64,000 nt of DNA from an uncultured virus (IMG/VR IMGVR_UViG_3300049913_000012) (taxonomy: Duplodnaviria > Heunggongvirae > Uroviricota > Caudoviricetes). Shown here one piece after another: positions 432 through 53,029 of this stretch (within the stretch, counting starts at the first letter, position 1; the number at the start of each line of letters is the position of its first letter). Made by a program: the position numbers and the translations under genes. The notes under the pieces are model-generated. The model was not told the origin of the DNA. It was given only the letters and a program-made list of their open reading frames with translations, and searched no databases. The stretch lies in IMG/VR virus record IMGVR_UViG_3300049913_000012; one strand, given 5' to 3'.

Positions 432-512
432 TTTGACCTCCTTAGCTAAAATATGGCTCCTCTCGCATGCGAGAAGGGCATTGACTTGATATGACTCACT
501 TGCAAAGCACTT

Positions 513-758
513 TCACTTGAGATTTCGAGGGACTCCTGGCTCACGTTTATAGTATACAGCACCAGTCCATTCACCCTCTTTGCCATCCCACACAAGCTGA
601 ACTCCGCTGATCTCTCTATCCCAAAGCGTAACAAGCAAAGGCCTCATTAGCTCAAAGACATCAGTGAGCGTGCCTTCAAAGACAGCTTTAGTAAGTTGCT
701 CAGTCATGATAATGTGGGAGTCAACAAACGTTCTTATCTCAGTTGGTTGCAGTGTCAT
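513..758 (-). CDS. Hypothetical protein
   Basis: 81-aa ORF with AAGGAGG RBS inside the end of the NADAR gene. Confidence 0.6.
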   Translation of the reverse strand: MTLQPTEIRTFVDSHIIMTEQLTKAVFEGTLTDVFELMRPLLVTLWDREISGVQLVWDGKEGEWTGAVYYKREPGVPRNLK

Positions 759-1224
759 TATCCACCTCCTTTCTTAGCAATGTCCTCACATTTCCTAATA
801 TCAGCCCTAGCATGTTCTGACCCTGGTTTCTGTGCTTGGGGCATTTGCACACACCCCAGAACATATCATGGAAGATGTTATATTCAATCAAAGCCATGTT
901 ATCTGTGTGTAGTAGCATTCTAGCTAATTCAGGATTTTGCCTAAACTTAGCCAGGACTACCAGAGCCATTACTTTTAGTTTGATGTCATCCCAATCATAG
1001 CGAACTTCACCAAACTTATTCTTCCAATATCGCTTGGCCTGACCAGGAGTAGCCAAACTAGCAATGTGCAGCCTCTTGCTTATATCTACAGTTTTATAAG
1101 CTTGGTAGGCATGTTCGGAACTATGATACACAATGCCCTGAAGCTGGATCACTGCTGGATAAAAGTTACTCAAGAAGCGATATTCATCCTGAAAGCCTTT
1201 AGCTGTTTCTCTTGGTGAAGGCAT
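739..1224 (-). CDS. NADAR family (YbiA/RibX-like) N-glycosidase / ADP-ribosyl hydrolase
   Basis: FLSNFYP...SSEHAYQAYK...AKFRQNPEL...D.FWG...GQNMLG motifs typical of NADAR. Confidence 0.9.
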   Translation of the reverse strand: MPSPRETAKGFQDEYRFLSNFYPAVIQLQGIVYHSSEHAYQAYKTVDISKRLHIASLATPGQAKRYWKNKFGEVRYDWDDIKLKVMALVVLAKFRQNPELARMLLHTDNMALIEYNIFHDMFWGVCKCPKHRNQGQNMLGLILGNVRTLLRKEVDNDTATN

Positions 1225-1225
1225 A

Positions 1226-1522
1226 TTACCTCCCTATGACTTTAGCTTGGTCGAGTGGTATGACTCTTTGCTCATTGGGTGCTTTGTTTACATCAGTGGC
1301 AAGGACATAGCCATTATCTTTCTTGACTACACTATACTCTTCGCTTTCTGAGTAGAATGCAGGCACATGACCATTGTTCCTTGTGATACGGACTTTCACA
1401 TGCTCTTTATGGAATAGGCTCATAGAATCCTCCTTTCTATTTGGGATTTGGAAGCGATCTACTAAGACAATCACTATCATTTCGGCTAAGATAATCAATA
1501 GGGGAACTAGGTAATCACTCAT
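1226..1522 (-). CDS. Hypothetical protein with N-terminal TM helix; second in-frame start at 1423
   Basis: AGAAAGGAG RBS before both ATG 1522 (MSDYLVPLLIILAE) and ATG 1423 (MSLFHKE). Confidence 0.55.
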   Translation of the reverse strand: MSDYLVPLLIILAEMIVIVLVDRFQIPNRKEDSMSLFHKEHVKVRITRNNGHVPAFYSESEEYSVVKKDNGYVLATDVNKAPNEQRVIPLDQAKVIGR

Positions 1523-1879
1523 AGATGCTCCTTTCTGTATAGGATAGTAGATATGTAGATAGGGAATGTAAGTATTCATGTGCGAGAAGTTTACGGATGG
1601 ATATGATTTACTTACACATTCTCGCATGATAGCGAAATGACAGATAATAGCGGTGGGAGGCGTAGGCTAGCCTCCCTATATTCCCTTAGAGGGTTGACTT
1701 ACGGGTTATTCAAAGTTTCATTAGAACGCACTCCTTTCTAGAGAGCAGTGTGACCTTCACTTACTACTCTGGTGTCCACTCAAATTGCACGCTGGCGTCA
1801 ATATAGGCGCAAGCGACAAATGAGTCGCAGTTGACAATAGTATTCTCAATCCCCTCTTGTTAGTCTACCTTGATAAACT

Positions 1880-1920
1880 AACAAGAAGGGGGGAGCACCC
1901 CACTGGTAGAGTGCTCCCCA
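1880..1920 (-). terminator. Intrinsic terminator after the 327-aa gene
   Basis: GGGGAGCAC/GTGCTCCCC stem followed on the minus strand by TTCTTGTT. Confidence 0.6.
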
Positions 1921-1939
1921 GAAATACGTGTGTTACTGA

Positions 1940-3958: not shown

Positions 3959-3991
3959 TACCTTGCTCCTTTTATAGAACGGTGTATATGT

Positions 3992-4872: not shown

Positions 4873-4877
4873 ATATA

Positions 4878-6623
4878 GTGTCAGGGAAACCGATCTATGA
4901 ATTGTCGGAATTTGAAATTTCATTGCTTAAGTCTGGTATCGAGGATCCCGATGCGATAACAGATTACTTCTTTCGCCAGAAGGGGGCAAAGAATGGCTGG
5001 AAATTAGACGAGAACTTTGATCCAGAAGGTAAGTGGCAAAGAAACGTTCATCGTGCTTCCCAAAAACGAATTGTCGTCATTGGTGGCTTTGGTTCTGGTA
5101 AGACAAAAGGTATAGCTCTTAGTGCCTGTGTGTGGGCTTTGTTGACTAAAGACTTTACCTTCATGAATTGTGCTCCTGCATCCTGGCAGTCTGAGCTCAT
5201 GTACAAATTCGTCACAGAAACCCTAGCCAGGGATACCGTCTTTGAGAAGATGATTTTCTCCAAACCGAAACGTCCTTACCCAATGGTGGATATTCGTTTC
5301 AGAGTTCGAGGACAACTAATTCGGGCTACACTGGAGTTTATGTCGGTTGACAAGAATGCTAAGGCTATTCTGTCCTGGGAAGGTGATTGGGTCAATATTG
5401 ACGAGGCTGGTCTGATTGATGATCTTGGTGGCACAATAATCAATCTTGGTTCTCGCATGCGAGGGCATATCAACGGAAGACCTTTCCTAGGCAGAATGTC
5501 CATGTGCTCAAACTCATGGGATAACCCTGAACTCTGGTATCGTTATGACTTAGCTCACGATCTACCCGATGATTATCTCTCGATGGCGATCTCCAGTCGC
5601 TATAATCACAACATTACTCCAGAACAATTGAAGAACATGCTGAAGGATATTCCAGAAGAAGAGCATGATCGCTTTATAGATGCTGCTAGACCTGAAGGAC
5701 GTGGTAATTACTTTTCTAAGTCTAAGATTTATCTAGCTGAGGATGATGCTTATAGCCAATTCTTACTTGGACATCTTGAGGCTGGCGCTAAGGGTTTTGC
5801 TGCTGAGACGACTTATGGTTGTGGAGTGACCTACTTTGAGATACCCCATGCCGAGTATCATGAATATATGCTCATTGGCGATCCTGGTACTGGCGCTGCA
5901 CCTAATAGAAATGCTCCAGTTCTACAAGTTTGGGACATTCATGAGTTCCCAAAATACAAAGCTACCCTGGTTGCCTTCTTCTGGGGCGATGGAAAAGGCT
6001 CAATTACACCCTTTTATCGCACCTTGTTCCATTTTATGGTCAAATATAACCCTATAGTGACTGCTGTAGATAACACTGGCCCCCAAAAGAACACTTCCGA
6101 GATACTAAATAACTATATTTTGGCTTCTCGTATGGATAAAGACAAGATGTTTGAGTTTTTAGGCGAGAAAATCGACCTTTCTAGCGTCTATAATCCTGTA
6201 ATTCAGGGAATGGACTTCTCAGGAGGCAAGAAACCAGCCTATCTAATCGCTGGAAGGCTCATGTTAGAGGCTCAACTCTTCTCATGGCCTAAAATCATCA
6301 CAGGAATGAGGTCGCAACTGAGTAACTATGATCCTGACAAAGATTCTGGCAACGGCACGAAGATTCCTCAAGACCTTGTGGCAGCATATTGCATGTCGGG
6401 TTATGCTGTTCAAGTTTGGTTTCATATCGACCCTAGTCGGTTGGTACAGAAGCCAGAAGAAAAAGATGTTCAGAAAGCTGAAGAACTATTCGGAAGAGCA
6501 GTTAGATCACCTGTGGTTGCAAGAGAACAAAGGAATAGTGGTCGATCCCCATCGACCCATCCTAAGAAATATAAACAGGAACAACCGCAGCCTATCAGCG
6601 AGGCCAAAGAAGACAATATTTGA
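4878..6623 (+). CDS. terL: Terminase large subunit
   Basis: Walker A GGFGSGKT, Walker B WVNIDEAG, C-terminal RNase H-like nuclease acidic residues (IGDPG, VDNTG, QDLV). Confidence 0.92.
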   Translation: MSGKPIYELSEFEISLLKSGIEDPDAITDYFFRQKGAKNGWKLDENFDPEGKWQRNVHRASQKRIVVIGGFGSGKTKGIALSACVWALLTKDFTFMNCAPASWQSELMYKFVTETLARDTVFEKMIFSKPKRPYPMVDIRFRVRGQLIRATLEFMSVDKNAKAILSWEGDWVNIDEAGLIDDLGGTIINLGSRMRGHINGRPFLGRMSMCSNSWDNPELWYRYDLAHDLPDDYLSMAISSRYNHNITPEQLKNMLKDIPEEEHDRFIDAARPEGRGNYFSKSKIYLAEDDAYSQFLLGHLEAGAKGFAAETTYGCGVTYFEIPHAEYHEYMLIGDPGTGAAPNRNAPVLQVWDIHEFPKYKATLVAFFWGDGKGSITPFYRTLFHFMVKYNPIVTAVDNTGPQKNTSEILNNYILASRMDKDKMFEFLGEKIDLSSVYNPVIQGMDFSGGKKPAYLIAGRLMLEAQLFSWPKIITGMRSQLSNYDPDKDSGNGTKIPQDLVAAYCMSGYAVQVWFHIDPSRLVQKPEEKDVQKAEELFGRAVRSPVVAREQRNSGRSPSTHPKKYKQEQPQPISEAKEDNI

Positions 6624-6726
6624 TTAGTTTAGCATTAGTATTTCTCGCACAATGTAGTAAAATATAGTAGTACTATTTCACTAAGCACCACCAAAGAGTA
6701 GATTAGATGTAAAGTGTAGCACAACC

Positions 6727-13234: not shown

Positions 13235-13265
13235 AACATTTCTCGCATGCGAGGAGTTATGTACC

Positions 13266-17000: not shown

Positions 17001-20000
17001 AATGCCTATGCCTCAGATGAATATATCATTCGTATGCTCTCGAATGGTGGCTTTATGAAGGCAGGGCAGATCAGTAGTATTTTGAGATACCTAAATGGTA
17101 AACCAGAAGCCTATTTACCGATTCTGTCTCAACGTTTCCCTGATGTAGGTGGCGAGACAATGTTCATGCCACTCAAGTTACGCTCAGCGAAGCATCTAAA
17201 GGCACTCGGCGTACCAATCCCAGAAGGCCCAACAGCCAATGATCTGATGTTCATGTCTACCAACGTCAACCGATTCCAAGTTGGTGACTTTGACGCCGAT
17301 CCTGCTAAGCAAAAAGTTCTTCCTATGAACCGCCTGTTCGACCCTAAAAGTAAACAGTGGACAGACGAGTGGTACATGAGTGGTGATCTTACTGGTGAGT
17401 TTGAGAGTAAATTCAAGGAATACTACGGAACTAGTGCTGCCATTGGACAGAAGATGGAGGAATTATTCGGCATTCATGGTACATCTGCTGGTGGCAATCT
17501 AGGCAAGTCATCAGAGAGTCTAGATGTTGCTAGAAAGAATGCTGCTGATTACATTACAGCAGTGTTGGGCGAATCAACCAGTTATCAATCTCGCATGCGA
17601 GAAAGTGGGGGTTTCTTAGCTAAGGACGCTCAGGAACAGCAAATGAATGTCATGCACATGAAAAGTGGCATGGGACTATCCTACATCATGCGTACTGAGC
17701 TCACCGATATTGCTTCTGCGGTTTTGGGTATGTCTGGCAGAGACACAGGCATTTTCAAGAGAGCCTACGAGAGCAGTGGCCTAACCTACCAGATGTATCT
17801 TGATAGATGGCAAAATATGAAGGGTGGCTTTACTGCTGTAGAAACCCTGATGAATACTTATGGTATCTATGGTATTGACGAAGCTCAGGGAGTAAGCAAT
17901 TACAGGGTAAGTTATAAACTCACAGAGCAAGGTCTACCAGTCGATGTTGATAGAAAGAATTGGAGTACTGGCGGTGGCGCTGGAATGGAAGCGTCCAGTG
18001 GTTTGCTGCGCCAGTTACTACATGTGGTTGGCAATATGCCAAAAGACATCATGACAGATGAAATGCTGGCATGGCTTGTCTCTGGCACAGGTGGTGCAGG
18101 AAAGGTACTTACCGCCCTAAAGAATCCTGCTGACTTCTGGAAAGCAGGGGGAATGGAGAGTACATGGTCTAAAGAAGCCATTGGGAATCGAGCTAATATT
18201 GTCAAGGAAATGACGAAGACTGGTGAGGTTGGTTTCAACTCTCCTCTGTACATGGGACTTACCTATAAGGCTATTCAGAGAGCAGCTAGAGACTTCCCAG
18301 GTTATATACAAAACCGAGATATTGTTCTTCCCTGGCTAGACGGAAAGATGATGCCTGTTTCAGACATCATGCAGACACCCGAATATAGGTTATGGGGTGT
18401 GGCTGAGAATATGTTTGTCAGGGGTAGCAAGGCAATTGATCCGAAAGATATGCAGCTTCTAGAAAATATTGGAGGCCCACGTCTAGCAGGAGAAATGGCT
18501 GGTATCTACTCTTCTTGGAAACAGGCTACAGGTGGTATCTATCCTGTCGAGCAAGCTGAGTTAGAGTATGGCGCAAGACAAAAGAAGGCTTACCAGATAT
18601 TCGGTGAGACTGCCATAAAGAATACACCTGTTGTCCACGCCAGTGAACTTGGTGCATTGCTTGGCTTGCCAAATCAGCTTAGAGCACAAGGATGGCTTGA
18701 GACAGGTGGGCCTGAAAAGATAGAAGCTCAGTATCATGCGGTTCTAAGTGCCTTGGGTGCTCCACAGTTGATGTCAAGCAGAGACTATCCAGGTACACAA
18801 TTCCTAACTACAGCAAAGATCATGGCTGGTGAGTCTATTATAGGTGGTACTGAGTATGAAGCAGCTTATGCAAGATCGCACCCAGGGCTAACTCACGTTG
18901 GCAGTGTAGACCCCAATGCTTCTCTGAAGTATCGCCTAGGTGGTCTGGAAATTCGGGGTGTACCTGACTTTATTAGTCTTGAGAATGGCAAGTTTGTTAT
19001 TCGTGATACTAAGAGTCCTGCTGAGAGAGAGGGCATTCAATATACTGCTGGCTTTGCTGAAACAATGGCAAAGAAATATCGCTATCGTATCCAGCAGATG
19101 GCTTATGCCTACGGTCTTGAGAAGATGGCGAAGGATACAGGCTTTTCAGATCCTCAGTGGATAAGCTTCATGAAGAACTGGCATCTCGACAATCCTGATA
19201 CTGCGCTAACGATGAGACAAGCTGCTGCTGCTGGTAACTTCAAGCTTCTGATCGCTCCAGGGCGTTATGTCTCTGGACTAACACCAGATGTATTCAAAGA
19301 GATTGAGGTTCCTTATGGAAACACAGAGAAACTAGAACTTGAAACCCTGGCTGCATCAGCTAAGGAGCAATTATTCCAGCCTAAGGTTGTAGGTAGGGTC
19401 GCTTCTAATATCTATACAGCACTAGCCAAAGGCACTACGCTAACTGATCTTCCAAGTTACACTCGCTCTGGACAACCTGTCGATATGGAAATGTACGATC
19501 TGTTCAGAAAAACTGCTGAACAGACTGGCTTCCCAATCGAAGGGGCAAGGATGTCTGGCGGTGGACGTATTGATAGTAAGCTCAATAGGATAGTCCGTGT
19601 AGGCGAAGGTGGCCCTGAAGACATCATTCTTAGCAATAATGAAGTCACTGTTGTTCCAACAAGTGATATACCTAACCGCACTATGAGTCAATATAGGCAG
19701 GGTGGTGGTCTGGCTTATAGTGATGAAATATATCGTAGGAAGAAAGCTGAGCGAGAACTTAGAAAACTACAGCAACAGATGGGTGTCCCCATAGCCACTG
19801 GCAATGAAGATTTAGGTCTTCTGGGTCGATTAGTCCCTAGTGAAACTGCAACAGAGCCAGTGATCCCTGCTCCTGTCCAGCCTGGGACAAATATCATTAG
19901 TGAAGAGTACCTATCCAGACTAGAAGCAATCTCAGGTACATTTGGAACGTCAGCCAGCACTCTCCAAGCAATTCAAGAGGGTGGGGGCATGACAATGAGA

Positions 20001-35025: not shown

Positions 35026-36468
35026 ATGAACGTAGGTGAGGGTAATGGAAAGGTCTATATAGGTATCCCAAGGGAAAGAATCTATTTCCCTGAGTTTGTG
35101 GATAACCGAGACGCAATCCTAACAAGCCTCACAAAAGCTGGTCTATCCTGTGACTACTATCAAGCGCAAGGTCACAGGGTAGACCGTAATCGTGACCGTA
35201 TCGTACTCGCTTTTCTGAAGCATCCGTTGCAACCAGAATGGTTGCTGATGATCGACTCAGACATGGAGCACATTCCCGATCTAGCTCAACGTCTCCTCGC
35301 ATGCGAGAAACCTATCGTAGGAGGATTATACTTCTATCGTGGACAGACTCATGATCCCTTTGCGTTCCGTAATGCCAAACCAGAGCTAGATGAATATGGG
35401 CGTACGAGTCGTACCTGGGCTCCTATGCGTGATGAAGTCTTTGATTTCTTAGCATCTTCAGGAGTTCCACTTAGGGACAATGCTGTAGCTATCAATGGCG
35501 TGAATGGGCTGACTAAGGTAGATGCAGTAGCCACAGGAGCCATGCTGATACATAGGAGCGTACTTGAAGCTATGCAGCCTGGGCCTTGGTTCGAGTATGA
35601 AACTGGTGGTAATTCTGAAGACCTAATGTTCTGTGCCAGGGCTACAGAGAAGTATGGTTTTGATATTTACTGTGACTTCTCCACGATTAGTGGTCACTAC
35701 GCCCTTGTTCCAATGGGTTATGCTGAGTTCATAAATAAATACCAACAACGAGGAGTTGAGCTCAGCAGTTATACTCCGACTGAAGCTATTGAGTGGTTTG
35801 CTGAGTTCTTCGAGAAGCCGAAAGAGGACACAACAGAGTTGTTCAAGCGGGGTAGTCCTCACTTCTTTGGTGATTACTGGAAGTCGCTACCTGATACTCT
35901 CAATGAAAACACGGAACGTGAGATATATAGAAATGCTACTTCTGGGCGTCCTTATATAGTGGAGTTGCTTTACTGGAATGCCAGTCCTGAGTTTCTGTCT
36001 CTTCGTCAGCGCTTCATCAGTATTAGGAATCGCAATGTCATAGAGATTGGTGCTGGTATAGGTACGCTAGCCTTACAGCTTGCTATACAGCGCAATAATG
36101 TTTTAGCAGTAGAGGTAAATCCAGTACTGAGAAAGTTTATCAAGTACAGACTCAAGAAGACTGTAGATAATATAGAGACTAAGATGGGTAACTTGAAGGT
36201 GGCTGGTGATGGATGGCTCAAGGCTCATACTAAGTATGATGTCGCATTTGCTCTGGATGTATTTGAGCACATGCCATTGCCAGACCTAAAAGCTACGATA
36301 GATACCTTGGGTGAAGTGTTAGTTACTGGTGGACATCTCTACTACCACAACAATTGGGGTCAGCAAGATATATTCCCCATGCACCATGACTATGCTGATA
36401 TATGGTCTGAGCTACTTGTCGATGCAGGATTCTATCAGATTTCGCCCAACGAGGCAGTTAGGACATAA
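35026..36468 (+). CDS. GT-A (GT2-like) glycosyltransferase fused to class I SAM methyltransferase
   Basis: LLMIDSDM (DxD), TGAMLIHRSV, SEDLMFC; C-terminal VIEIGAGIG and DVFEH. Confidence 0.85.
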   Translation: MNVGEGNGKVYIGIPRERIYFPEFVDNRDAILTSLTKAGLSCDYYQAQGHRVDRNRDRIVLAFLKHPLQPEWLLMIDSDMEHIPDLAQRLLACEKPIVGGLYFYRGQTHDPFAFRNAKPELDEYGRTSRTWAPMRDEVFDFLASSGVPLRDNAVAINGVNGLTKVDAVATGAMLIHRSVLEAMQPGPWFEYETGGNSEDLMFCARATEKYGFDIYCDFSTISGHYALVPMGYAEFINKYQQRGVELSSYTPTEAIEWFAEFFEKPKEDTTELFKRGSPHFFGDYWKSLPDTLNENTEREIYRNATSGRPYIVELLYWNASPEFLSLRQRFISIRNRNVIEIGAGIGTLALQLAIQRNNVLAVEVNPVLRKFIKYRLKKTVDNIETKMGNLKVAGDGWLKAHTKYDVAFALDVFEHMPLPDLKATIDTLGEVLVTGGHLYYHNNWGQQDIFPMHHDYADIWSELLVDAGFYQISPNEAVRT

Positions 36469-37029: not shown

Positions 37030-40000
37030 ATGGCACTTACTCCTGTAAAGCTAACTGGTTTTGAATGGGGGACTTCTACCCTAACCGCCAATGGTGGCGG
37101 TCTTTGTGACACAGTAACGGGAAGTCCTACAGTCTCCTCATCCTATAAGAGAACAGGTACTTATTCTCTTAGGATTTATGCTGCCTCCGCTGCTGCCACC
37201 AATATTATCTTTACCACTACCACAATTGGCTCAAGCAAGAATGTGATGATAGGTTCTGCCTATATTATGTTCCATACTTGGCCTAATGGCAACGTGGAAA
37301 TCTTTACTGCTACAGTCGGGGCAGTTTATCCTTCTATCTATTTTGACAATACCAACAAGAAGATTATGTCCACTGCTGGTGGATCAGCACAAACCAATGG
37401 TGTGACTATAGCCCTTGATACATGGTATAGAATAGACTGGAAGATAAATGTTTCTGCTAATCCTTGGACAGTAGATGTTCAGGTTGAAGGCACTGCTAGC
37501 ACTCAGGCTACTAATGGGGTGGCTGGTAGCACTTTTACCAATGCTATTATTGGATGGCGTACTGCCTATACTGGTGAGATGTATGTCGATGACTACATTC
37601 TATCTACAACAAGCACAGATACTTATCCTATTGGTCAGCATTTTATTATAGGTTTGTCTCCCGCCAATAAGGGCTACATGCACTCTAATAATCCTAGTGG
37701 ATACCTTCAAGATAATTATAGTAGTGTAATTGACGATAGTGGGACTGTTGCTTGTGGGAGCCTTGACGAAATACCATTTGGAACGACTACTGATTATATA
37801 AAACAGACTGCTATTGCGTCTGGCGAGTATGCTGAAACACAATTTGCTAGTTGTCCTGGTGGCACTGTTATAGGTGTCCAGTTCTTATTGGGATATACCT
37901 CCTCTGCAACCACTGCCAATAGTGCATCCACTCGTATACGAGATGGAGAGGGTACTGAGACTGTCGTCTTTACAGGAGATATGTCTGAGACAAGCACATT
38001 CTATAAGTTCAAGATCATTCCTCCACCTAGTATTTTTGGGCGCTGGAGTTCCGATGCAGTAAGTACGCTAAAAGCAAGAATGGGTTATGCTACTAGCGTT
38101 GGCAGTCTACCACGCTGGCAAACTATGATGCTTGAAGTAGCCATGACTGGTTATGGTGGTGGTACTTCTGGTTCAGGCTATCAAATTTGCGAAAGCTGGA
38201 ATGAACCAATTGCTGTGTGCGAGACTTCTTCAGGTGTATTCTATGCTCTTTGCTATGATGGTCAGTTCATGGATTACGGTGTCGTCTTATATAAGTCTAC
38301 TGATTTTGGTCATACCTGGATAAGATTTCTTGAGGCCGATTCAACTAAGATTTGGGGTACAGCAGGAGTCGGCACAACTGCTCGAATGGTTACAGATGGC
38401 AATAATATTGCCATTTTTGCTTGCCGAAACGCAAATAGTGCCGACTGTATAAAGTATTGTAATGGTGGTGGGCCTACTGCTGATTGGGAAACCATATTTA
38501 CTTCTGGCTCAAATGGAATGAGCACAATTGCAATGGGTGTGGGCATAGACAGTAGTTATTATCATACTCTCTGGTGTTTCTTTGCCTACATTCCTGATGG
38601 TACTACCAAGGGACGCTTAGCCTATGTAAATCTGCCTTGGTATACATGGCAAGCAGCCATTGATGTTCCTGGCATTACCGATCCTGCGTCTTTTACCAAT
38701 ATAGGACTTCAAACTAAGGGAGATGGTGGCTTATGGGTGTTTTATTGCACTGATGGAGAAGGCGATCCTCCAGATGGTCTATACGTAATTAGATATGCGT
38801 CAGGGTGGCAGACTCCAGTCAAAATAACTGGAGGTACTAGTGGTCATGTGTTCTTCCATGAGCTTTATGGCCCTAGCATCGTGATTGATAAAGACGATGA
38901 TTATTTTGCCTACCATGCCAATATCAATAGCCCATACTATATTAGGGAAAATGCAAACTCTTACAACTATGGAGTAATGTACTCTGGTGGCACTGGTCTT
39001 GTTCACTACAAATATAATCCTACTAGTGGGAGTGGTTTCTTTAGGATGTTATTTAGCAGAAACAGTAAGTTTTGGTACATGACCAGAGACGATGATGTTG
39101 ATTGGGATGCCTATAACGAGAATGCCAAAGTCGAAATACCATCCTACGCAATGGCTGGCACTATCATTGGTCAAAATTCAGCTATTGATTTTCCTCCTGC
39201 GTCTGGTGATATTGGTCTTATTTACAAAGACGTTGCTGGAGAGTATATCTACTTCAAGGGTCTTTTTAACGAGGCTAGTACTAGTGTTCATGCCTATCTA
39301 GAGGGTTTCAGTACTGTTTCTGTTGAATATCCAGTTCTTCAAAGTGCAGTTATCGTTCCTTGTGCTGAGAAAGCCTTTGCCTGTGCCAGCAATGGTAATA
39401 TGTACTGTCTCATGCAGGACTATAACAACTCTAACTTTATCCAGATGTATAAGTCCACCGATGGTGGTCAGACTTGGGCAACATGTGGCTCTCAGGTAAC
39501 ATCTACTACTCTTTGGGGGTCTGCAAACATGGCATACCTCAATCAGATGATGATAGCTCCTGACAACACTATTCACGTCATGGTATGTACATCTACAACT
39601 AGTGCGGTTTGTACAAAGTGGAACACTTATAACATTTCTACTGATACTTGGGGAGCTTCCTGGGAAACAGTTTATACAGCAGACGGAAGTGGTAACTATT
39701 GCTATGGTCGTCTATATGTTGATAAGGATGGCTACCCCTGGATTGCAGCGTGTAGTGCTACCAATCATGTTGTAAAGAATAGACGTTCAGGCTCTTGGAG
39801 CGCTGAGGAGGTGGTAGGAGCAAAATTATGTGACTGGAATAATTGGTCTTTTGCTGCGGTTGATAACAACAAAGCGTTACTTGCTACATATACCGTAACA
39901 AAGATAGGTTACTACGAAAAACAGGCTGGTACTTGGGGTTCTCATGTAGACCTAGCATACACTGGTGGCGGTAGTGGTTCATGTTCTCCTCTTGGCAGTA

Positions 40001-41607: not shown

Positions 41608-44600
41608 CAACTGTGCGACTGCTGGCTCTTATAACTGGACTGCTCCTACTGGAGTAAACAGTGTAACCATCGAGGCCTGGGGTGCTGGCGGTGGCGGTGG
41701 TGCTGGTATCAATGGCAACACTACTACTGGTGGCGCTGGTGGAGGTGGTGGCGGTGCGTATGCAAGGATCACAGTAACTGGTCTGATTGCTGGTAATAAT
41801 TATCCTTTTGTTGTTCCTGCTGGCGCTGCTGGAGGCCCTGCTGGTAACAACAATGGTTCTACTGGTGCTGCTGCTACATTCAATAATAACACTTCTGGAA
41901 ATGTAGCTACTATCTTATCGGCTAACGGTGGCGGTGGCGGTCTGCGTTGTAACAACACAGGCAATCGTGCTGGTGCTGGCGGTGCAGCTAATGGTAGTGG
42001 CGGTGGAATTACCAGCTACAAGGGTGGTAATGGTGCTAACCAGAACGGTTCTTCAGGCGGTGGCGGTGGTGGGGCAGGGGCAGGAAATACTGCTGCTGGC
42101 ACAGATGCAACTACGATCACTGGTGCAACTGGTGTCAATGGTGGCGGTAATGGTGGTAATGGTGGTGTCCGTAACGCTGCTGGCAATGTCTTTCGTACTG
42201 ATTCAGGTGCGGGAGGTGGCGGTGCAGGACGTACCAATGCCACTGGTCGTGCTGGTGGTGCGGGTGGCAAGGGCCGAGTTCTAATTACTTGGACGATCAA
42301 TGTAGTAACTAGTCATGCTGCTTACCTAAAAGGCGGTACGCCAGTTAGTGCTAGTCATGCAGTATACCTAGCTGGTGGGTCTGATACTGATCCAGCTATT
42401 CCTGCTGTATCTTTCTATGTTCCTGGCAGTGCTGGTACACAGACTTCATCAAGCCATGCAGCTTATTTGAGGGGACAGGATACAGGAAGTTCTTCTCATA
42501 CTGCATACCTAAAAGGAAGTATAGTAGCCACTCCAGCTAGTCACGCAGCCTATCTCAAGGGTAGTGCTAGCGTAACCACGTCTTGTTCTGCTTATTTGAA
42601 AGGGAAAGTAGATACAACAGCCTCACACGCAGTATATCTAAAGGGCGGTATTGTTGCAGTAGCAAATCAAGCAGCCTACTTGAAAGGACAATCGTCTGGC
42701 ACAACTAGTCATGCTGCTTATCTAAAGGGACAGAGCTCAGGAACCACTAGCCAGTCAGCTTATTTGAAGGGGCAATCTAGCACACTTACCTCTCGACCAG
42801 CGTATTTGAAGGGTGGAATTGTAGTATCTGCTAGTCACTCTGCTTACCTGAAAGGCTCAACCAATGTAGTTGCCAGTGTACCAGCCTACCTATGTGGTGG
42901 TATTGCTACTTCTCGCACAGCTTATCTAAGAGGGCAAAGTAGTATTGCAACTAGTGCTCCAGCATACCTGAAAGCTCAGGCTAGCCTAGTAACTAGCCAA
43001 CCAGCCTATACTAAAGGACAGGCTAGTACTCTTGATTCTCATGCTGCTTTCCTGAAGGGTGGGATCGTAGCCACAACCTCTCAGCCAGCTTACCTAAAAG
43101 GACAGGCTAGCACCGCTGTCTCGCATGCGAGCTTTTTGGCTGGTGGGATTATAGTTACCACATTCAAAAGCGCCTATCTAAAAGGCAAAGATACTGCGGT
43201 TGATAGCCATGCAGCTTATCTACAGGGTGGTATTGTCTCTGTCTCGTCTATGCCTGCGTACTTGAAGGGAAAGGACACAACCTCAACTAGTCGTCCTGCG
43301 TACTTGTCTGGTGGTGTAATATCTGTAACTAGTAATCCAGCTTATTTGAAAAGTGAGGCCACTCTCGTTGGTAGTCACCCTGCGTATCTACGTGGGCAAG
43401 ATACTCAATCTACTTCAGTTCATGCGTATCTCAAGGGATGGAATACAGGGCTAACTAGTGCTCCAGCATACTTAGTGGGTGGACTAGCGAGCTCTAAGCC
43501 AGCCTTCTTGAGAGGCGGTGTTGTTGCTCTAACTTTTATCCCTGCATATCTAAGAGGTCAAACTACTGGCAATACTAATCAGTCAGTCTATCTACGTGGC
43601 TATCTTACTACCGTAACTTCAGTTCCAGCCTACCTGATTGGCAAAGCTGATCGTCTTACTGATATTCATGCGTATGCCAGTGGTAAGGATGTAACTAATA
43701 CTCAGGCTCCAGCCTATACTCGTGGTCAGCTTAGTGTGACTACTTCTGTACCAGCATTCGCAGCTACTAATGCTAAGGTACAGACTTCTATTCCAGCGTA
43801 TTTGAAGGGTTTTCTCACCGATCAGACCTCAGTTAGAGTATTCCTGGTTGGTAAAGATACTGCCAGTAGCAGCCAACCAGCCTACCTAAAGGGCGGTCTT
43901 CAAACATCGGTTCATGCCTATTTGCATGGCTCTCTCAATCCGACTGCTTCTACTCCTGCATATCTAAGAGGTCAAAATACAGCGATAGATAGTCATCCTG
44001 CTTTTCTGCAAGGCAAACTAACCGCAGTTACGAATGTTAGTGCTTTCTTGCGAGGAAAGAGCACCTACGCAACAGATGCTCAGGCTTACTTGCGTGGTTG
44101 GGATACAGCCCAGGCTTCCTGTCCAGCCTTCCTTGCTGGTGGAGTGATCGTACAGTCAAGTGTACATGCCTATTTGATCGGTGGTGTCAAGACTTCCAAA
44201 CCAGCCTACCTGATTGGCGGTCTAGTCACACTTGCACATGCCTATACCAGGGGCTCTATTGATACAGTCACTTCTAAGTCTGCATACCTGAAAGGATGGA
44301 ACACAACTCTTAGTAGTATCCATGCTTTCTTGGTAGGTGGAATCAAGGTTGATACCAGCACTCCAGCCTACTTGAATAGTAAGGACACAGCGGCTACCTC
44401 CAGGTCAGCTTACTTGGCAGGGCAATCAGGCAGTCTAACTACATCTGTTCCAGTATATCTAAAGGGATGGGATCACACATCTACTAATACTCCAGCCTTC
44501 TTAGCTGGAGGTGTCAAGGTTCAATCATCCATCTCGGCTTACCTAGGAGGTCTAGACTATGGACAAACGAGTCGAGCAGCATTCTTACAAGGGGTGGATA

Positions 44601-46609
44601 CTGGACTATCGAGCATACACGCTTATCTTGCTGGTAAGCAACAGGCGCAAACTAGTCATGGGGCATTCCTCCAGGGTCAGGAAAGTATCGCTAGCGTTTA
44701 TCACGGATACCTCAGGGGTCAAGCGCAAACTTCATCTTCAGCGCCTTCATTCCTACAAGGACAAGCGTCTGCAATAACTAGTAAGTCAGCCTACCTAATA
44801 GGTGGATTGAGGACATCGGTTCATGCCTTTCTTACTGGTGGGTTTATTGTTTCAGATAGCAAGCCAGCTTACCTACGTGCATCAAGTGTAGCCCAGAGTT
44901 CTATACCAGTTTATTTACATGGCAAGAGCGATACACAAACTAGTATCCATGCCTATTTAGCTGGAGGCATACTTGTTGATAGCTCCAGGCCAGCATATCT
45001 ATCTGGTGGCGTAATCATAAGTACTTCAGTCCAAGCTATGCTTACTGGTGGAGTAGTTGTAAGCACTTCTGTTCATGCTTTCATGGTTGGGTATTCTGCG
45101 AATGCCACTGCTGTCCCTGCATATCTGCGTGGCAAGTCTGATATTGTTACATCGGCTCCTGCATTTACTAAAGGTGGTATAGAGGTTGAAGACTCTCGAA
45201 GTGCATTCTTATGGGGACGCCAGGATGCCCTAGGATCGAAACCAGCTTTCCTAAGTGGTAGAGATTTCGGAGTTTCTTCAGCACAGGTCTTCCTACGAGG
45301 GCAACTTGGAACGATAACTTTTGTTCATGCCTACTTGTGTGGACAGGACATTGCACAATCCTCTATATCAGTATATCTGCGTGGTAGTCTTGTAATTGGC
45401 ACTTCGGTATCTGCTTTCTTGGCTGGTAAGGACACAATTAGTACCAGTCATCCCGCTTTCTTGGAAGGTTTGCTACGCACTACAGCTCATGCCTACCTAG
45501 CTGGAGGCAATCCTGTGGTCATGTCGGTACATGCGTTCCTACAAGGAAGTGATATAGCTGTAACTTCTGTAGAAGTCTATCTACATGGTCTAACATCAGG
45601 GACAGGTAGTGCTCCAGCCTACTTACGTGGACAGAATACGATCCAGACTAGTATACATGCCTTCTTGCAAGGCAAGCTAACTGCCGAGACTTCTGTCCCT
45701 GCTTTCATGTCTACCAATGCAGTCGATCAAACTAGCATTCATGCTTATCTGAAGGGTTACTCTGCTAATACTACATCTATTAGAGCTTACATAAGAGGAC
45801 AGGACTTTGGCATCACAAGTATTCATGCCTACCTTGAAGGTGTAGTTCGCACGTCTATTGAAGCTTTCTTGGCTGGTGGGATCGAAGTAGAGACTTCTCA
45901 AAACGCTTATATTCATGGCTCAAACCAAGCGTTTTCAGCCCAAAACGCTTACTTGCGAGGCCAAAGCGAGAGCTCGCATGCGAGGAGTGCTTACCTACGT
46001 GGTAGTGCTGATGCAGTTACACAGACCAAAGCATACACTGCTGGTGTAGCAACTAATGTGAGCAGTACTCCTGCCTTCCTTAGAGGCCAGGATACTGCAC
46101 AGACATCTTGTCCAGCTTTCTTGGTAGGTGGAATTGAGGCTAGTACCTCAGTTCATGCTTACCTAGGTACTGCTGGCATGCCAGTCACCAGTGTTCACGC
46201 TTATCTAGTAGGCGGGTTGATCGAATCTAGCTCAGTACCAGCCTATATGCGAGGTGGAGCAGAGACAACCACAAATCAGCATGTGTTCTTACAAGGCTAT
46301 GATACCAATGTCACGACAGTGCATGCCTATTTGGTTGGTTGCATTGCTACAGATACTAGTGCTCCAGCTTATATGATAGGTGGAGTGGCAACCAGAGTAC
46401 ACGCTTACCTCAAGGCTAATCCTGTCTTCTGGAACTTCATGCTCAAGGATGTTACTCTTCACCGTCTAGTTGAGAGGAACGTCACAGTCACTATCATACG
46501 TAAGGATATAATTCTCGATAGACTGGTTGAGAAAACTGTCATACTCACCAAAGATGTTGAGAAAACAATGAATATAAATACTATAATTAATAAGGAGGTA
46601 TCGACATGA
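41597..46609 (+). CDS. Very long repeat fibre protein: Gly-rich N-domain plus about 100 S-x-x-A[YF]L-x-G repeats
   Basis: GTG start with GGGAG RBS; tandem 11-15 aa repeats over about 1380 aa. Confidence 0.75.
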   Translation: MPSNNCATAGSYNWTAPTGVNSVTIEAWGAGGGGGAGINGNTTTGGAGGGGGGAYARITVTGLIAGNNYPFVVPAGAAGGPAGNNNGSTGAAATFNNNTSGNVATILSANGGGGGLRCNNTGNRAGAGGAANGSGGGITSYKGGNGANQNGSSGGGGGGAGAGNTAAGTDATTITGATGVNGGGNGGNGGVRNAAGNVFRTDSGAGGGGAGRTNATGRAGGAGGKGRVLITWTINVVTSHAAYLKGGTPVSASHAVYLAGGSDTDPAIPAVSFYVPGSAGTQTSSSHAAYLRGQDTGSSSHTAYLKGSIVATPASHAAYLKGSASVTTSCSAYLKGKVDTTASHAVYLKGGIVAVANQAAYLKGQSSGTTSHAAYLKGQSSGTTSQSAYLKGQSSTLTSRPAYLKGGIVVSASHSAYLKGSTNVVASVPAYLCGGIATSRTAYLRGQSSIATSAPAYLKAQASLVTSQPAYTKGQASTLDSHAAFLKGGIVATTSQPAYLKGQASTAVSHASFLAGGIIVTTFKSAYLKGKDTAVDSHAAYLQGGIVSVSSMPAYLKGKDTTSTSRPAYLSGGVISVTSNPAYLKSEATLVGSHPAYLRGQDTQSTSVHAYLKGWNTGLTSAPAYLVGGLASSKPAFLRGGVVALTFIPAYLRGQTTGNTNQSVYLRGYLTTVTSVPAYLIGKADRLTDIHAYASGKDVTNTQAPAYTRGQLSVTTSVPAFAATNAKVQTSIPAYLKGFLTDQTSVRVFLVGKDTASSSQPAYLKGGLQTSVHAYLHGSLNPTASTPAYLRGQNTAIDSHPAFLQGKLTAVTNVSAFLRGKSTYATDAQAYLRGWDTAQASCPAFLAGGVIVQSSVHAYLIGGVKTSKPAYLIGGLVTLAHAYTRGSIDTVTSKSAYLKGWNTTLSSIHAFLVGGIKVDTSTPAYLNSKDTAATSRSAYLAGQSGSLTTSVPVYLKGWDHTSTNTPAFLAGGVKVQSSISAYLGGLDYGQTSRAAFLQGVDTGLSSIHAYLAGKQQAQTSHGAFLQGQESIASVYHGYLRGQAQTSSSAPSFLQGQASAITSKSAYLIGGLRTSVHAFLTGGFIVSDSKPAYLRASSVAQSSIPVYLHGKSDTQTSIHAYLAGGILVDSSRPAYLSGGVIISTSVQAMLTGGVVVSTSVHAFMVGYSANATAVPAYLRGKSDIVTSAPAFTKGGIEVEDSRSAFLWGRQDALGSKPAFLSGRDFGVSSAQVFLRGQLGTITFVHAYLCGQDIAQSSISVYLRGSLVIGTSVSAFLAGKDTISTSHPAFLEGLLRTTAHAYLAGGNPVVMSVHAFLQGSDIAVTSVEVYLHGLTSGTGSAPAYLRGQNTIQTSIHAFLQGKLTAETSVPAFMSTNAVDQTSIHAYLKGYSANTTSIRAYIRGQDFGITSIHAYLEGVVRTSIEAFLAGGIEVETSQNAYIHGSNQAFSAQNAYLRGQSESSHARSAYLRGSADAVTQTKAYTAGVATNVSSTPAFLRGQDTAQTSCPAFLVGGIEASTSVHAYLGTAGMPVTSVHAYLVGGLIESSSVPAYMRGGAETTTNQHVFLQGYDTNVTTVHAYLVGCIATDTSAPAYMIGGVATRVHAYLKANPVFWNFMLKDVTLHRLVERNVTVTIIRKDIILDRLVEKTVILTKDVEKTMNINTIINKEVST

Positions 46610-48290: not shown

Positions 48291-48328
48291 CCAGACACAC
48301 CTAGGCGAGATACCTAGGTGTTGTCTGG
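48291..48328. terminator. Hairpin at the convergence of the two arms
   Basis: CCAGACACACCTAGG / CCTAGGTGTTGTCTGG inverted repeat between convergent genes. Confidence 0.6.
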
Positions 48329-49680: not shown

Positions 49681-50063
49681 TATAGTTCTCCTCTATGAGT
49701 AGCATTCCTTGTCCACAAGACAGCTTTGGTTAGTGTAGTCACTACTCTTTCTTCATGCTCGATGCCCTCTACACGCATTTCATTTACAAGAATATGCAGT
49801 AGTTCATGGATAACAATCTTCTCGATCTTCCACCTACTCATTCCTTTGAATGCTGGCAAGTTGATATGTAGAGCAGCAGTACCATATATCCAATAGACGT
49901 AGGTTTTAGCTACTACTACATCGGTGCGATCATCTGTTGGAAACCAACGTAAGACATCCTTGGGTTTGGAATGCCAGTGTAAAGTCACTTCCCACCAGCC
50001 TAGTCCTAGAGGACTAAGCCATTTATTGACTGCTTTCATGACACGCTTGCGTGTCCTTCTCAT
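49680..50063 (-). CDS. HExxH metallopeptidase-like protein
   Basis: IVIHELLHI...EERVV. Confidence 0.55.
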   Translation of the reverse strand: MRRTRKRVMKAVNKWLSPLGLGWWEVTLHWHSKPKDVLRWFPTDDRTDVVVAKTYVYWIYGTAALHINLPAFKGMSRWKIEKIVIHELLHILVNEMRVEGIEHEERVVTTLTKAVLWTRNATHRGEL

Positions 50064-50278
50064 TGTCTATGCTTCGCTTCTTGCCTTGCCATATTTCTTT
50101 TGGCAATAGCGACTCTGCGCCCAAGGTACTCTTTATGTACCTTTTCTCGTGCGTCCTTACGAGCGCAGATGCGACATTTACCTGCTGATGCTTGGTAGGT
50201 TCTTACACCTTTATTGTAACTGCGCCAGATCATGCGCTTTTTGCAGTCTGGACATGGGTATCTTCCGTTTTTAGCCAT
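50060..50278 (-). CDS. Small Zn-ribbon protein
   Basis: CPDC...CRIC. Confidence 0.5.
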   Translation of the reverse strand: MAKNGRYPCPDCKKRMIWRSYNKGVRTYQASAGKCRICARKDAREKVHKEYLGRRVAIAKRNMARQEAKHRQ

Positions 50279-50279
50279 A

Positions 50280-50924
50280 TTATTCTCCTATCATTTGCAC
50301 GACATGAAACATCTCTGCATAGTTTGCTTGGATAGCCAGCCCACGCATTTCAGCTACTATCTGTGCTGCCATTGGAGAGCATGGATGTGGAAACTGTCTT
50401 ACCCAAGATTTATAGGTTGAAATAGCCTGTACTTTCTTATAGAAAGTGTCGGTTATGTCAACGTAGAGTTTACCACCTGGAGTACTGTAATCAGGATAAG
50501 TGTACTCATACATAAGTATATTGGGAATATGGACATGAGCACCTAAGCGTAGAGCAGATAGACTTGCCTCGTGCGTAATCTTATGGTCTTTATGATGAGA
50601 TGGATAAGGAAGAAAGACATAGTTATATGGACGTTCATCCAGTATCCGATCAAGCTCAGTGACAATATCTATCATGGGGAGGGTATCAAGCCTTACTTCC
50701 TTGGTTGGGAACAGAGGTGTCACTCGACTGATACCAAGGATCGCTGATGCTCTTATACACTCATCATAGCGTACATCATCTTGCTTGCCTATTCCTATAG
50801 CTAGGACTACTAGGTGTATAAAAGCGCCTTTTTCAGACCATTTAGCAATCGTACCACCACATCCAAAGGACTCGTCATCTGCATGCGGAGCTATTACCAG
50901 AATATTCGTGTTGCTATCTACCAT
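50280..50924 (-). CDS. PIG-L/LmbE family deacetylase
   Basis: VIAPHADDE...GGTI; HHKDH. Confidence 0.9.
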   Translation of the reverse strand: MVDSNTNILVIAPHADDESFGCGGTIAKWSEKGAFIHLVVLAIGIGKQDDVRYDECIRASAILGISRVTPLFPTKEVRLDTLPMIDIVTELDRILDERPYNYVFLPYPSHHKDHKITHEASLSALRLGAHVHIPNILMYEYTYPDYSTPGGKLYVDITDTFYKKVQAISTYKSWVRQFPHPCSPMAAQIVAEMRGLAIQANYAEMFHVVQMIGE

Positions 50925-51718
50925 GCTGTGTAATTACCATCCTTTACATAGAATCTGAAGCGTATTCCATTTCTACGTAACTGGTTCTTTAGTATTTCTG
51001 TAAGTCGAGTAGCAGCACCTATAATTGAGGGATAGCCAGTATCAAAGATGGTGGTTGCACCATTCTCGATTATTATGATTCTCCCTCCTTCGACCATTGT
51101 GCGTGGAGGCGTATTGCCACCCTGAATCCTTGTTGCTTGGTACAGTATATCTGTAAGGATTTTCTGTATCTCTCCTGATGATAGCTTTCTGGGGTACTCG
51201 TTTTCCTTTAGTATCCTAACTGGTATTCCACCAGCAAGACAGCCCGAAGGCAAGTCTATATTCACCAGACTTCTAGCTGCGACCACTACATCGTTGCCAA
51301 TGGTTACACCTGGGTTTACCCAAGTACTAGGTAGCCATACATGATCGCCAATGTGAACTTCATCGAACTTGACAGGGAAGCCTCGCAGTATAGATTGATA
51401 TGCACCATGCGTGAAGATTTGGGTTTGCACTCCTACACCACACTCATGTCCAATAATGACTGATCGGGCAGTGTTGATGTGTGAGTCTACTCCCATGTGC
51501 AAGAAGTCACCAGCACACAATGTTGATTGAGGGTCGAAGCAGCTACCTCCTCCAATGTAGGCACGCTTATTCAGGAAGGCTTCCTTACCGATCTCAACAT
51601 ATCTACCTTCTATGACCACATTCTCGTTGACGATACTGCGATCTCCAAGGGAGCCTTTCTCTACGTTGATGACTGCTGTAGGGTGTATCTGACAATTCTC
51701 TCCAATGGTAAAACTCAT
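50918..51718 (-). CDS. Hexapeptide-repeat (LbH) sugar acetyltransferase
   Basis: IGENCQIHPTAVI; VHIGDHVW; VTIGNDVVVAARSLV; GGIPVR. Confidence 0.85.
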   Translation of the reverse strand: MSFTIGENCQIHPTAVINVEKGSLGDRSIVNENVVIEGRYVEIGKEAFLNKRAYIGGGSCFDPQSTLCAGDFLHMGVDSHINTARSVIIGHECGVGVQTQIFTHGAYQSILRGFPVKFDEVHIGDHVWLPSTWVNPGVTIGNDVVVAARSLVNIDLPSGCLAGGIPVRILKENEYPRKLSSGEIQKILTDILYQATRIQGGNTPPRTMVEGGRIIIIENGATTIFDTGYPSIIGAATRLTEILKNQLRRNGIRFRFYVKDGNYTAW

Positions 51719-52409
51719 GGGGCATTCCTCAATTTCTCTAGCCACTCTGGTGCAGCAGTGTAGGTAACAAAGGGTGGTAGGGACAATGGTTGTAACTCAA
51801 GTCTTCTTATCAGGTCTTGAGGGCTAGTAAAGCCTGATCCTGGTATCTGTGCATAGAGCATAGCTTTCTTCTTGAACCTTTTCTCTGCATAGTAGCTGAA
51901 ATGAATGATAGAAATACCAGACTCAAGAGGAATACTACTGATGTTTGCTGCAATTCCTGCTACATAGGTGTGGATCGGCTCAAGCCACCTTACTTGTAAT
52001 GTCTTTTTGAATAGACATAAATGACCAAAGCCATACTCGATAGGTAGACACTGGCGTGGCTCCTTCATTATATGATAGCAAGGAACGCTCCAGCCAACCT
52101 CGTCATGCTTAGATATAAACCTATTGAGACTTTCGATCATCTGGTCGCTAGGTAGTTCATCACTATCCCACTTGAGTATCCAGTCTCCATCATTGCAGTA
52201 CTCTAGCATCTTGTTTCTTGAGACAGACAGGTCTAGTATATTTTCATGGTTATAGTGGACGTAATCATGAGGACGTAGTGTAGCCTGGATTAGCTCTACG
52301 CTGCTATCTGTTGAGCCTTGGTCAACAAAGATAATCCTGTCTGCGAATAGCTGTAGAGCAGGGACAACCACAGGAAGGTAGATAGCATCGTTATGAACGA
52401 TCATATTTA
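51715..52409 (-). CDS. GT2-like glycosyltransferase (start approximate)
   Basis: IIFVDQGSTDSS; WILKWDSDE; IIHFSY. Confidence 0.8.
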
Positions 52410-52429
52410 TAACTAGCTTTGCCTTGTTC

Positions 52430-53029
52430 TTAGCCACCCTTTGCCTCCTGTTCTCGCATGCGAGACAGCAAACGTTGCCGATTTTCTTCATCCCATTTAT
52501 TGGACTCAGGGTATCTGCGTCTCGTAGCTCCCCATACATGCAAAATAGGTAAGGGGATTACTCTACCCTTTATACCCATGCGTGATAGTCTCCATGCCAG
52601 ATCAACATCTTCCCATGAGTTCTTATAGGCTATATCAAACCCACCCAGGAAGTTCCACACATCTCTGTCTATGACGATGCACCAGCCCTCGATGTACTCT
52701 ACACCTTCCTTGATAAGACCAACTGCACCGCCATAGGGATAGTCCCATGAGTCAAGTCGAGCAAAGATGTCACCCCTTACTGTGATGTCATTGTTCAGTA
52801 TCACTAGTTTCTTACAGGTAGCTAGTGCTGCACCCTTGTTGACTGCCTCGGCGTAGGGAACCATTTCATCAATGTTGACTTCACCCCTATTCTCGCCACC
52901 ATTGTCAACACGAATAAGCTCATAATCAATAAGGGTACTCTGGCCTAGTGATCTCCAGGCTGGTACAGTAAAGTGATCCCACTCGCTCTTGCCAGCGCTT
53001 ACCATCACTACGCTGTATTTAGCTGACAT
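52430..53029 (-). CDS. GT2 glycosyltransferase
   Basis: VDNG; AVNKGA; LNND; GGFD..Y...WEDVDL. Confidence 0.85.
   Translation of the reverse strand: MSAKYSVVMVSAGKSEWDHFTVPAWRSLGQSTLIDYELIRVDNGGENRGEVNIDEMVPYAEAVNKGAALATCKKLVILNNDITVRGDIFARLDSWDYPYGGAVGLIKEGVEYIEGWCIVIDRDVWNFLGGFDIAYKNSWEDVDLAWRLSRMGIKGRVIPLPILHVWGATRRRYPESNKWDEENRQRLLSRMREQEAKGG

What the first reader, a model, noticed from the sequence alone, without database searches (positions are those of the whole stretch)
462..52464. The 12-bp palindrome CTCGCATGCGAG is spread along the genome every 3-9 kb
Seen: at least 9 perfect copies (462, 5452, 13242, 17590, 26202, 35296, 43120, 45973, 52453), several extended to TCTCGCATGCGAGA. 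Expectation for a given 12-mer in 64 kb at uniform composition is about 0.004. Seven copies lie inside genes in three different frames (SRMR, LACE, SHA[SR]), so selection acts on the DNA, not the protein. One copy overlaps the RBS of the tail chaperone gene. Half-site variants TTCTCGCA[CT] occur near 1580/1620, 6642 and 57155. Inference: binding sites for a dimeric protein, such as a repressor roadblock, a parS/matS-like organiser, a packaging/ejection signal or a protective modification site.
Basis: partly seen in the sequence, partly recalled or inferred. Interest (0 to 1): 0.78.

Follow-up and report, generated by a model that had tools for sequence, protein, structure and literature searches.

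The report
Phage genome tiled with ParB sites
An uncultured phage repeats one 12-letter DNA palindrome about every 7 kb, mostly inside genes; the word equals the core of a proven plasmid ParB-binding site and is likely the loading site for a ParB-type sliding clamp that is probably the phage's own and would coat the phage genome.

Summary
Confirmed: 9 perfect CTCGCATGCGAG copies at the stated positions, 11 in the 74-kb phage record (Markov expectation about 0.002-0.004), evenly spaced (P=0.0007), 9 of 11 inside genes. Relatives keep it at changing positions; at the terminase site motif carriers encode Met where six non-carriers encode Leu, so selection acts on the DNA. The word is the core of parS of plasmid NAH7, shown in print to bind ParB. 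The record is about 86% complete and holds no parB, but a relative encodes a stand-alone ParB in the missing region and uses a variant site, and a ParB (P0031) shares the 79,038-bp longest-contig figure with eight of this phage's proteins, so it is probably its own. It lacks both hydrolytic glutamates. Best reading: ParB clamps load at each site and spread to coat the genome; binding and purpose are untested, and KorB-like regulation or partition remain. Against: the NAH7 and phage HTHs are unrelated; six relatives' fragments (72 kb) lack the word. This scan reported ParB-type palindrome tilings on other phages before; I found none in print.

The parts
462..473 (.). Perfect palindrome (14-bp TCTCGCATGCGAGA), likely intergenic, about 30 bp upstream of a minus-strand start at 431
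5452..5463 (.). Perfect palindrome inside the terminase large subunit gene (GSRMRG); kept in relative L063, absent (GSRLRG) in six other relatives
13242..13253 (.). Perfect palindrome running into the ribosome-binding site of ORF 13266-13709; a copy sits at the matching place in L063 (12148)
17590..17601 (.). Perfect palindrome (14 bp) inside the 3548-aa virion gene (SRMR frame)
26202..26213 (.). Perfect palindrome inside ORF 25040-29161 (SRMR frame); kept in relative G003
35296..35307 (.). Perfect palindrome inside ORF 35026-36468, which bears a methyltransferase domain (LACE frame)
43120..43131 (.). Perfect palindrome inside ORF 41597-46609 (SHA frame)
45973..45984 (.). Perfect palindrome inside ORF 41597-46609 (SHA frame)
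52453..52464 (.). Perfect palindrome (14 bp) in the overlap of minus-strand ORFs 51715-52539 and 52430-53029. Two more perfect copies (64070, 71622; the latter a full 18-bp parS1NAH match) and one hybrid (70744) lie beyond the window in G000
37931..37942 (.). Variant palindrome CTCGTATACGAG, the spelling used by the sister lineage L314-L317; probably a weaker site
1574..1632 (.). Pair of imperfect sites in inverted orientation (TTCTCGCACATGA on minus, TTCTCGCATGA on plus) near the start of ORF 1226-1627; probably low-affinity sites
6642..6657 (+). Imperfect site TTCTCGCACAATGTAG between terminase and portal; also present in L063 (5540)
57154..57167 (+). Imperfect site TTCTCGCACATGAC between the GH25 lysin gene and ORF 57298-58386

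Best explanation
The palindrome is an evenly spaced, selected DNA word, identical to the core of a proven ParB-binding site, and is likely the loading site of a stand-alone ParB-family clamp that is probably encoded by the phage itself; clamps would load at each copy, slide outward and coat the whole phage genome. SHOWN: the copies, their even spacing, selection on the DNA, identity with the NAH7 parS core, a ParB gene on the same contig as a variant site in a relative. INFERRED: that P0031 is this phage's ParB (matching contig statistics); that it binds the word through its HTH as a dimer; that it closes around DNA on binding a nucleotide (probably CTP) and, lacking both hydrolytic glutamates, releases slowly, so that spreading zones from sites about 7 kb apart overlap. 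The job I think most likely is a self-marking protein coat that organises and shields the intracellular phage DNA as a whole, not control of single promoters and not partition.
For: 11 perfect copies against 0.002-0.004 expected, with almost no 1-mismatch halo. Even spacing, P=0.0007. 9 of 11 in coding DNA in three frames; Leu-versus-Met difference in terminase; sites gained and lost at unrelated places in relatives (portal in L063, an early gene in L314-L316) while density is kept: 5 in 25.8 kb (G003), 3 in 23.4 kb (G004), 4 in 9.9 kb (L318); this fits a position-independent, spreading function. TTTCTCGCATGCGAGAAA is parS1 of NAH7, bound by its ParB in gel shifts and dispersed in six copies (PMC12421886, passages); G000 71619 is a full 18-bp match. 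G000 lacks about 11 kb (CheckV 86%; one contig runs 11,416 bases beyond position 1). Relative L317 covers the matching region and encodes a stand-alone ParB (HTH_ParB over cut-off; Foldseek E 3.5e-9 to ParB, pLDDT 85), with its own variant CTCGTAYACGAG three times in about 13.6 kb. P0031, third hit of that family's profile, lies on 7 JGI contigs, longest 79,038 bp; 8 of 8 G000 proteins found in the collection give the same figure; the same logic pairs P0033 with P0010 at 56,648 bp. Box II is G-x-[RK]-R with G and the last R in 28 of 28 rows, N112 in 27 of 28, but the E78 position is never acidic and the E111 position is acidic in 5 of 28; P0031 has GNKR and SNNQR. B. subtilis E78Q/E111Q bind but do not hydrolyse CTP and widen spreading from about 15 to 40 kb (PMC8494293, passages).
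Against: No binding is shown, and I never saw the DNA that encodes P0031: the link is by contig statistics. The NAH7 ParB is not close to P0031 (29% over 38 aa, E=0.069) and the recognition helices differ, so the site match is convergence or chance, not homology. Six relatives' fragments (L066-L071, 71.6 kb, capsid 59-73% identical) have no copy and no evident substitute palindrome; whether they have a ParB is unknown. Protein-site co-variation rests on two lineages only. Missing glutamates need not stop hydrolysis, and sequence does not predict which nucleotide binds (PMC12704722, abstract and section heading). Some sites touch ribosome-binding sites (13242; L063 12148; L318 751), which fits regulation. 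Nothing here shows what the coat is for.
Confidence: 0.5

Rival explanations
1. KorB-like long-range regulation: the same ParB loads at the palindromes and slides to promoters, where it represses or activates them, perhaps with a small HTH partner.
For: KorB is a CTP clamp that silences promoters up to 1.5 kb from its operators with KorA (PMC11790492, abstract and section 4); NAH7 ParB activates genes downstream of this very site. Sites at 462 and 13242 lie just upstream of genes; imperfect sites lie mostly between genes or near gene starts. A LexA-like HTH gene overlaps the end of parB in L317 and another lies 110 bp from site 64070.
Against: 9 of 11 perfect sites are inside genes, one deep in a 10.6-kb gene; spacing is even rather than promoter-linked; positions turn over between relatives.
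Confidence: 0.22
2. Partition of a plasmid-like prophage: dispersed centromeres as in N15 or NAH7, with ParA in the unseen region or borrowed from the host.
For: The word is a working centromere in NAH7; scattered centromeres are known for RK2 and N15 (PMC5016525, passage). No integrase or resolvase found in the 74 kb, which leaves a plasmid state open.
Against: No ParA in G000, none among 19 ORFs of L317 scanned with PHROGs; hydrolysis matters for partition in B. subtilis and the glutamates are missing; 11 evenly spread sites exceed the need. About 11 kb is unseen.
Confidence: 0.12
3. Another phage dimeric protein (for instance the LexA-like winged helix at G000 64180-64479) reads the word as an operator or transcription roadblock, as mycobacteriophage stoperators do (recalled).
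For: Weak LexA_DNA_bind match (E 0.00095, below cut-off) next to site 64070; homologs exist only in close kin.
Against: The word equals a ParB site and a ParB is probably in the genome; stoperators are asymmetric and oriented (recalled), this word is symmetric.
Confidence: 0.1
4. A host or plasmid protein reads the word (host ParB, or an IncP-9-type plasmid ParB that the phage exploits).
For: The 16-mer is multi-copy on Pseudomonas and Burkholderiales contigs that carry NAH7-type ParB. The host is unassigned.
Against: Sister phage lineages respell the site, which a fixed host reader would not favour. In 401 Chloroflexota genomes, a guessed host phylum, 43 have a copy, none more than 2, no more than the reversed-word control.
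Confidence: 0.06

Closest known systems
ParB and parSNAH of IncP-9 plasmid NAH7 (PMC12421886)
   Same: Identical 12-bp core, one full 18-bp match; several copies dispersed round the replicon; ParB-family reader (shown there, inferred here).
   Different: NAH7 has parA-parB-parR-parC and intergenic sites; here no ParA was found, 9 of 11 sites are in genes and evenly spaced, flanks are looser, and the ParB is a different lineage with another recognition helix and without the two glutamates that NAH7 ParB keeps (GERR, SENVH).
KorB and OB operators of plasmid RK2 (PMC11790492)
   Same: ParB-family CTP clamp loading at dispersed palindromes and acting at a distance.
   Different: KorB has a ParA partner (IncC) and KorA, and targets promoters; different site; no such partners shown here.
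Noc and NBS; orphan ParB proteins of mobile elements (PMC12704722)
   Same: ParA-independent ParB-family protein; P0031's best solved-sequence matches are Noc; orphan ParBs are common on phages.
   Different: Noc needs an N-terminal membrane helix and works on the chromosome (recalled; not tested here); the passages of the survey that I read name no DNA sites for phage orphans.
Phage-plasmid ParABS systems (N15 IR1-4, P1; proposed for cyanophage Mic1, PMC7156551)
   Same: Palindromic ParB sites in a phage genome, scattered in N15.
   Different: Those encode ParA and serve prophage partition with few sites; here 11 or more sites tile the genome and no ParA was found in the sequence seen.

Membership tests
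ParB-family CTPase clamp (protein P0031/P0025) | ParB N-terminal fold followed by ParB-type HTH | tested here: met
   Pfam HTH_ParB over cut-off and ParB_N below cut-off for P0025; profile E 1e-18 to solved ParBs; Foldseek E 3.5e-9
ParB-family CTPase clamp (protein P0031/P0025) | Nucleotide-binding residues of box II and box III (G77, R80, N112 equivalents) | tested here: met
   G 28/28, R 28/28, N 27/28
ParB-family CTPase clamp (protein P0031/P0025) | Catalytic acidic pair (E78, E111 equivalents) | tested here: not met
   E78 position acidic in 0 of 28; E111 position acidic in 5 of 28; N and S in P0031
ParB-family CTPase clamp (protein P0031/P0025) | Binds CTP, closes and slides on DNA | not testable with these tools
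   needs biochemistry; some homologs bind ATP or GTP instead
parS site | Palindrome of 12-18 bp matching a ParB-bound sequence | tested here: met
   core identical to parS1NAH, one full 18-bp match
parS site | Cognate ParB in the same replicon | tested here: inconclusive
   absent from the 74 kb seen; inferred in the missing part from contig statistics; seen directly only in relative L317
parS site | Bound by that ParB | not testable with these tools
   no binding assay possible
ParABS partition system | ParA ATPase partner | tested here: inconclusive
   none in G000 or among 19 L317 ORFs; about 11 kb of this phage unseen
IncP-9/NAH7 par system | ParB orthologous to NAH7 ParB in a parABRC cluster | tested here: not met
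   no significant tblastn hit in G000; P0031 versus NAH7 ParB 29% over 38 aa
KorAB-type regulator | Clamp-locking partner with its own operator at target promoters | not tested
   small HTH genes are present but no interaction or operator was tested

The most novel reading that the evidence does not exclude
A phage family tiles its genome with parS-like words, rewriting its own proteins to do so, to load a naturally hydrolysis-dead ParB that locks onto DNA as long-lived sliding rings and sheathes the whole genome as a self-mark and shield against host defences, having converged on the same DNA word as an unrelated plasmid ParB.
Probability: 0.25. Interest if true: 0.85.

Novelty: new variant of a known kind. 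Interest (0 to 1): 0.64.

Why it matters
Orphan ParB proteins are common on phages but their DNA targets and jobs are largely unknown (PMC12704722). Here a candidate protein, its candidate site and a sister lineage with a respelled site come together, and the site is already a validated ParB site in print, so binding, cross-binding and spreading can be tested with purified proteins and short DNA without culturing the phage. If the clamp family really lacks hydrolysis, it would be a natural counterpart of laboratory ParB(EQ) mutants and would show how a segregation switch is turned into a genome coat. Two unrelated HTHs reading one word would also bear on how ParB specificity evolves.

Tried and rejected
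Assembly or adapter artefact: rejected (intact frames, unique flanks, same word in relatives, contigs of 4 runs). Protein-level repeat: rejected (three frames; all 5 RMR and all 3 LACE peptides in ORFs of 150 aa or more use the exact word, but only 2 of 11 SHA). Restriction or modification site: unlikely, the genome avoids palindromes strongly (CCGG and CGCG absent, 32 of 64 six-base palindromes absent) and the inner GCATGC is not enriched. ParB inside the 74 kb: none by Pfam, by the family profile or by a broad profile. Fetching the missing region or further ParB loci: viral scans with the early protein, its alignment, two ParB alignments and DnaB found nothing; laid contigs gave lengths but no letters; the word-indexed search with P0025 missed P0031. 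Host assignment failed: Chloroflexota was my guess from protein style; capsid (0 of 401), ParB family (0 of 401) and lysin (0 of 201) found nothing there, with no positive control; no close cultured relative. The viral 14-mer scans gave mostly single, probably chance hits; 80 of 111 rows were seen. A first fold on 6 sequences was poor (pLDDT 61) and not used. No complex prediction was run.
Full report
Observation. The window is the first 64 kb of a 74,270-bp linear phage record, G000, with terminase, portal, major head and tail genes on the plus strand and early genes on the minus strand; its DNA is found in freshwater-sediment metagenomes (10 of 18 listed runs hold half or more of the sampled words; 4 may be the source). 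The whole record has 11 perfect copies, one 1-mismatch copy and 4 two-mismatch words. Expectation under Markov orders 1-4 is 0.002-0.004. Spacing is more even than random (CV 0.36, P=0.0007). The flanks lean to TTCTCGCATGCGAGAA. This is all the more marked because the genome otherwise avoids palindromes: CCGG and CGCG never occur and 32 of 64 six-base palindromes are absent.

Selection acts on the DNA. Nine of 11 copies lie in called ORFs, in three frames. At the terminase site, 7 relatives align: L063 has the word and encodes GSRMRG like G000, the other 6 lack it and encode GSRLRG. Relatives also carry copies where G000 has none (portal gene of L063; an early gene of L314-L316), with different codons and residues. 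Density is kept while positions change: 5 copies in 25.8 kb of G003, 3 in 23.4 kb of G004 (one a variant), 4 in 9.9 kb of L318. A sister lineage (L314, L315, L317, 98-99.5% identical to each other, so one phage; also L316, L065) spells it CTCGTAYACGAG. Against generality: six other fragments (L066-L071, 71.6 kb) have no copy, and no convincing substitute palindrome; the whole 27-kb record of L067 has none.

What the word is. A full-text search for the word returned one work: in PMC12421886 (abstract and passages seen, supplements not) TTTCTCGCATGCGAGAAA is parS1 of the IncP-9 plasmid NAH7, one of six dispersed sites, bound by NAH7 ParB in gel shifts. G000 position 71619 is a perfect 18-bp match. 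So a ParB-family protein can read this word.

Who reads it here. The 74 kb holds no ParB, but it is incomplete: CheckV 86%, and a contig of run X4 extends 11,416 bases beyond position 1. The metagenome relative L317 covers the matching region and encodes a 288-aa stand-alone ParB, P0025; its model (pLDDT 85) matches ParB, Noc, Spo0J and KorB structures. A profile search with that family ranked P0031 third. P0031 lies on 7 JGI contigs, the longest 79,038 bp. Eight of 8 G000 proteins found in the collection show the same longest contig on 6-10 contigs (2 more G000 proteins were not found by exact look-up). Of 20 ParB hits looked up, only P0031 shows this figure. I infer that P0031 is this phage's ParB; I did not see its DNA. 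No ParA, tyrosine integrase or serine recombinase was found in G000, and no ParA among 19 L317 ORFs. P0031 is not an ortholog of NAH7 ParB (29% over 38 aa) and the recognition helices differ, so the shared word is convergence or coincidence; it shows feasibility, not descent.

Anatomy of the protein. Across 28 family members the nucleotide-binding G and R of box II and the N of box III are kept (28, 28, 27), but the position of B. subtilis E78 is never acidic and that of E111 is acidic in 5 (register). P0031 has GNKR and SNNQR. In PMC8494293 (passages) E78Q and E111Q bind CTP, do not hydrolyse it, spread over about 40 instead of 15 kb, still recruit Smc, and impair partition. Caution: PMC12704722 (abstract, headings and passages) reports that some ParB folds bind ATP or GTP and that sequence does not predict this.

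Mechanism. Most likely the ParB dimer binds each palindrome, closes, slides off and is replaced, and slow release lets zones from sites about 7 kb apart overlap into a coat on the intracellular phage DNA. Even spacing, in-gene location and positional turnover favour a whole-genome job over promoter control; the lack of a visible ParA and of the glutamates argues against partition. What the coat achieves (organising replicating DNA, shielding it, marking self) is inference; none of it is tested. KorB-like regulation (PMC11790492; abstract, section 4 and passages) is the main rival, helped by sites next to ribosome-binding sites and by the imperfect TTCTCGCACA class (5 copies, about 0.1 expected, post hoc). 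A host reader is least likely; the word is not enriched in 401 Chloroflexota genomes, though the host is unassigned.

Known versus new. It works like ParB-parS/KorB-OB/Noc-NBS; the site is a known parS word; it is not shown to be a ParABS or IncP-9 system. Scattered centromeres are known for RK2 and N15 (PMC5016525 and PMC7205306, passages) and ParABS was proposed for cyanophage Mic1 (PMC7156551, passages). Searches of the open-licence library found no description of a phage genome evenly tiled with sites for a ParA-less ParB; subscription papers and supplements were not searched. This scan's earlier notes describe such tilings with other words on many other phages; they prompted the hunt for the phage's own ParB and are not counted as evidence. 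What this case adds is the match to a validated site, a respelled sister lineage with its ParB on the same contig, and the missing glutamates. Verdict: real, new variant of a known kind, interest 0.64.

Noticed in passing
window 1574-1632, 6642-6657, 42910-42923, 57154-57167; G000 64821-64834: Second class of imperfect sites, TTCTCGCACA five times (three share TTCTCGCACATGA), mostly between genes or near gene starts; one is conserved in L063. Weak ParB sites or operators of another protein.
   Followed up: partly
whole record G000: Extreme restriction-type avoidance: CCGG and CGCG absent, TTAA at 9% of expectation, 32 of 64 six-base palindromes absent.
   Followed up: no
window 61034-61339 (-): ORF matches Pfam Tad3, a Thoeris inhibitor family (E 1.8e-9, over cut-off).
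   Followed up: no
window 739-1224 (-): NADAR-family gene (E 4.5e-26), a possible ADP-ribose-removing counter-defence enzyme.
   Followed up: no
window 48314-61037 (-) and 35026-36468 (+): Cluster of glycosyltransferase, methyltransferase, PIG-L deacetylase and hexapeptide transferase genes; may modify virion or DNA.
   Followed up: no
window 61638-62184: Five-base-periodic array; an earlier scan note calls it a VIPR guide array.
   Followed up: no
L050 (G002:11977-12089) and L051 (G001:25778-25830): Two unrelated viral records carry tight clusters of the same 16-mer (3 perfect; 2 perfect plus 2 near-perfect); G001 has a canonical ParB about 10 kb away.
   Followed up: partly
window 13986-24632 (+): 3548-aa virion gene with no family match beyond a weak C-terminal zinc finger; likely a tape-measure or ejected multi-domain protein.
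   Followed up: no
L317:1802-2029 (+): 75-aa LexA-type HTH gene overlapping the end of the relative's parB; a candidate KorA-like partner.
   Followed up: no
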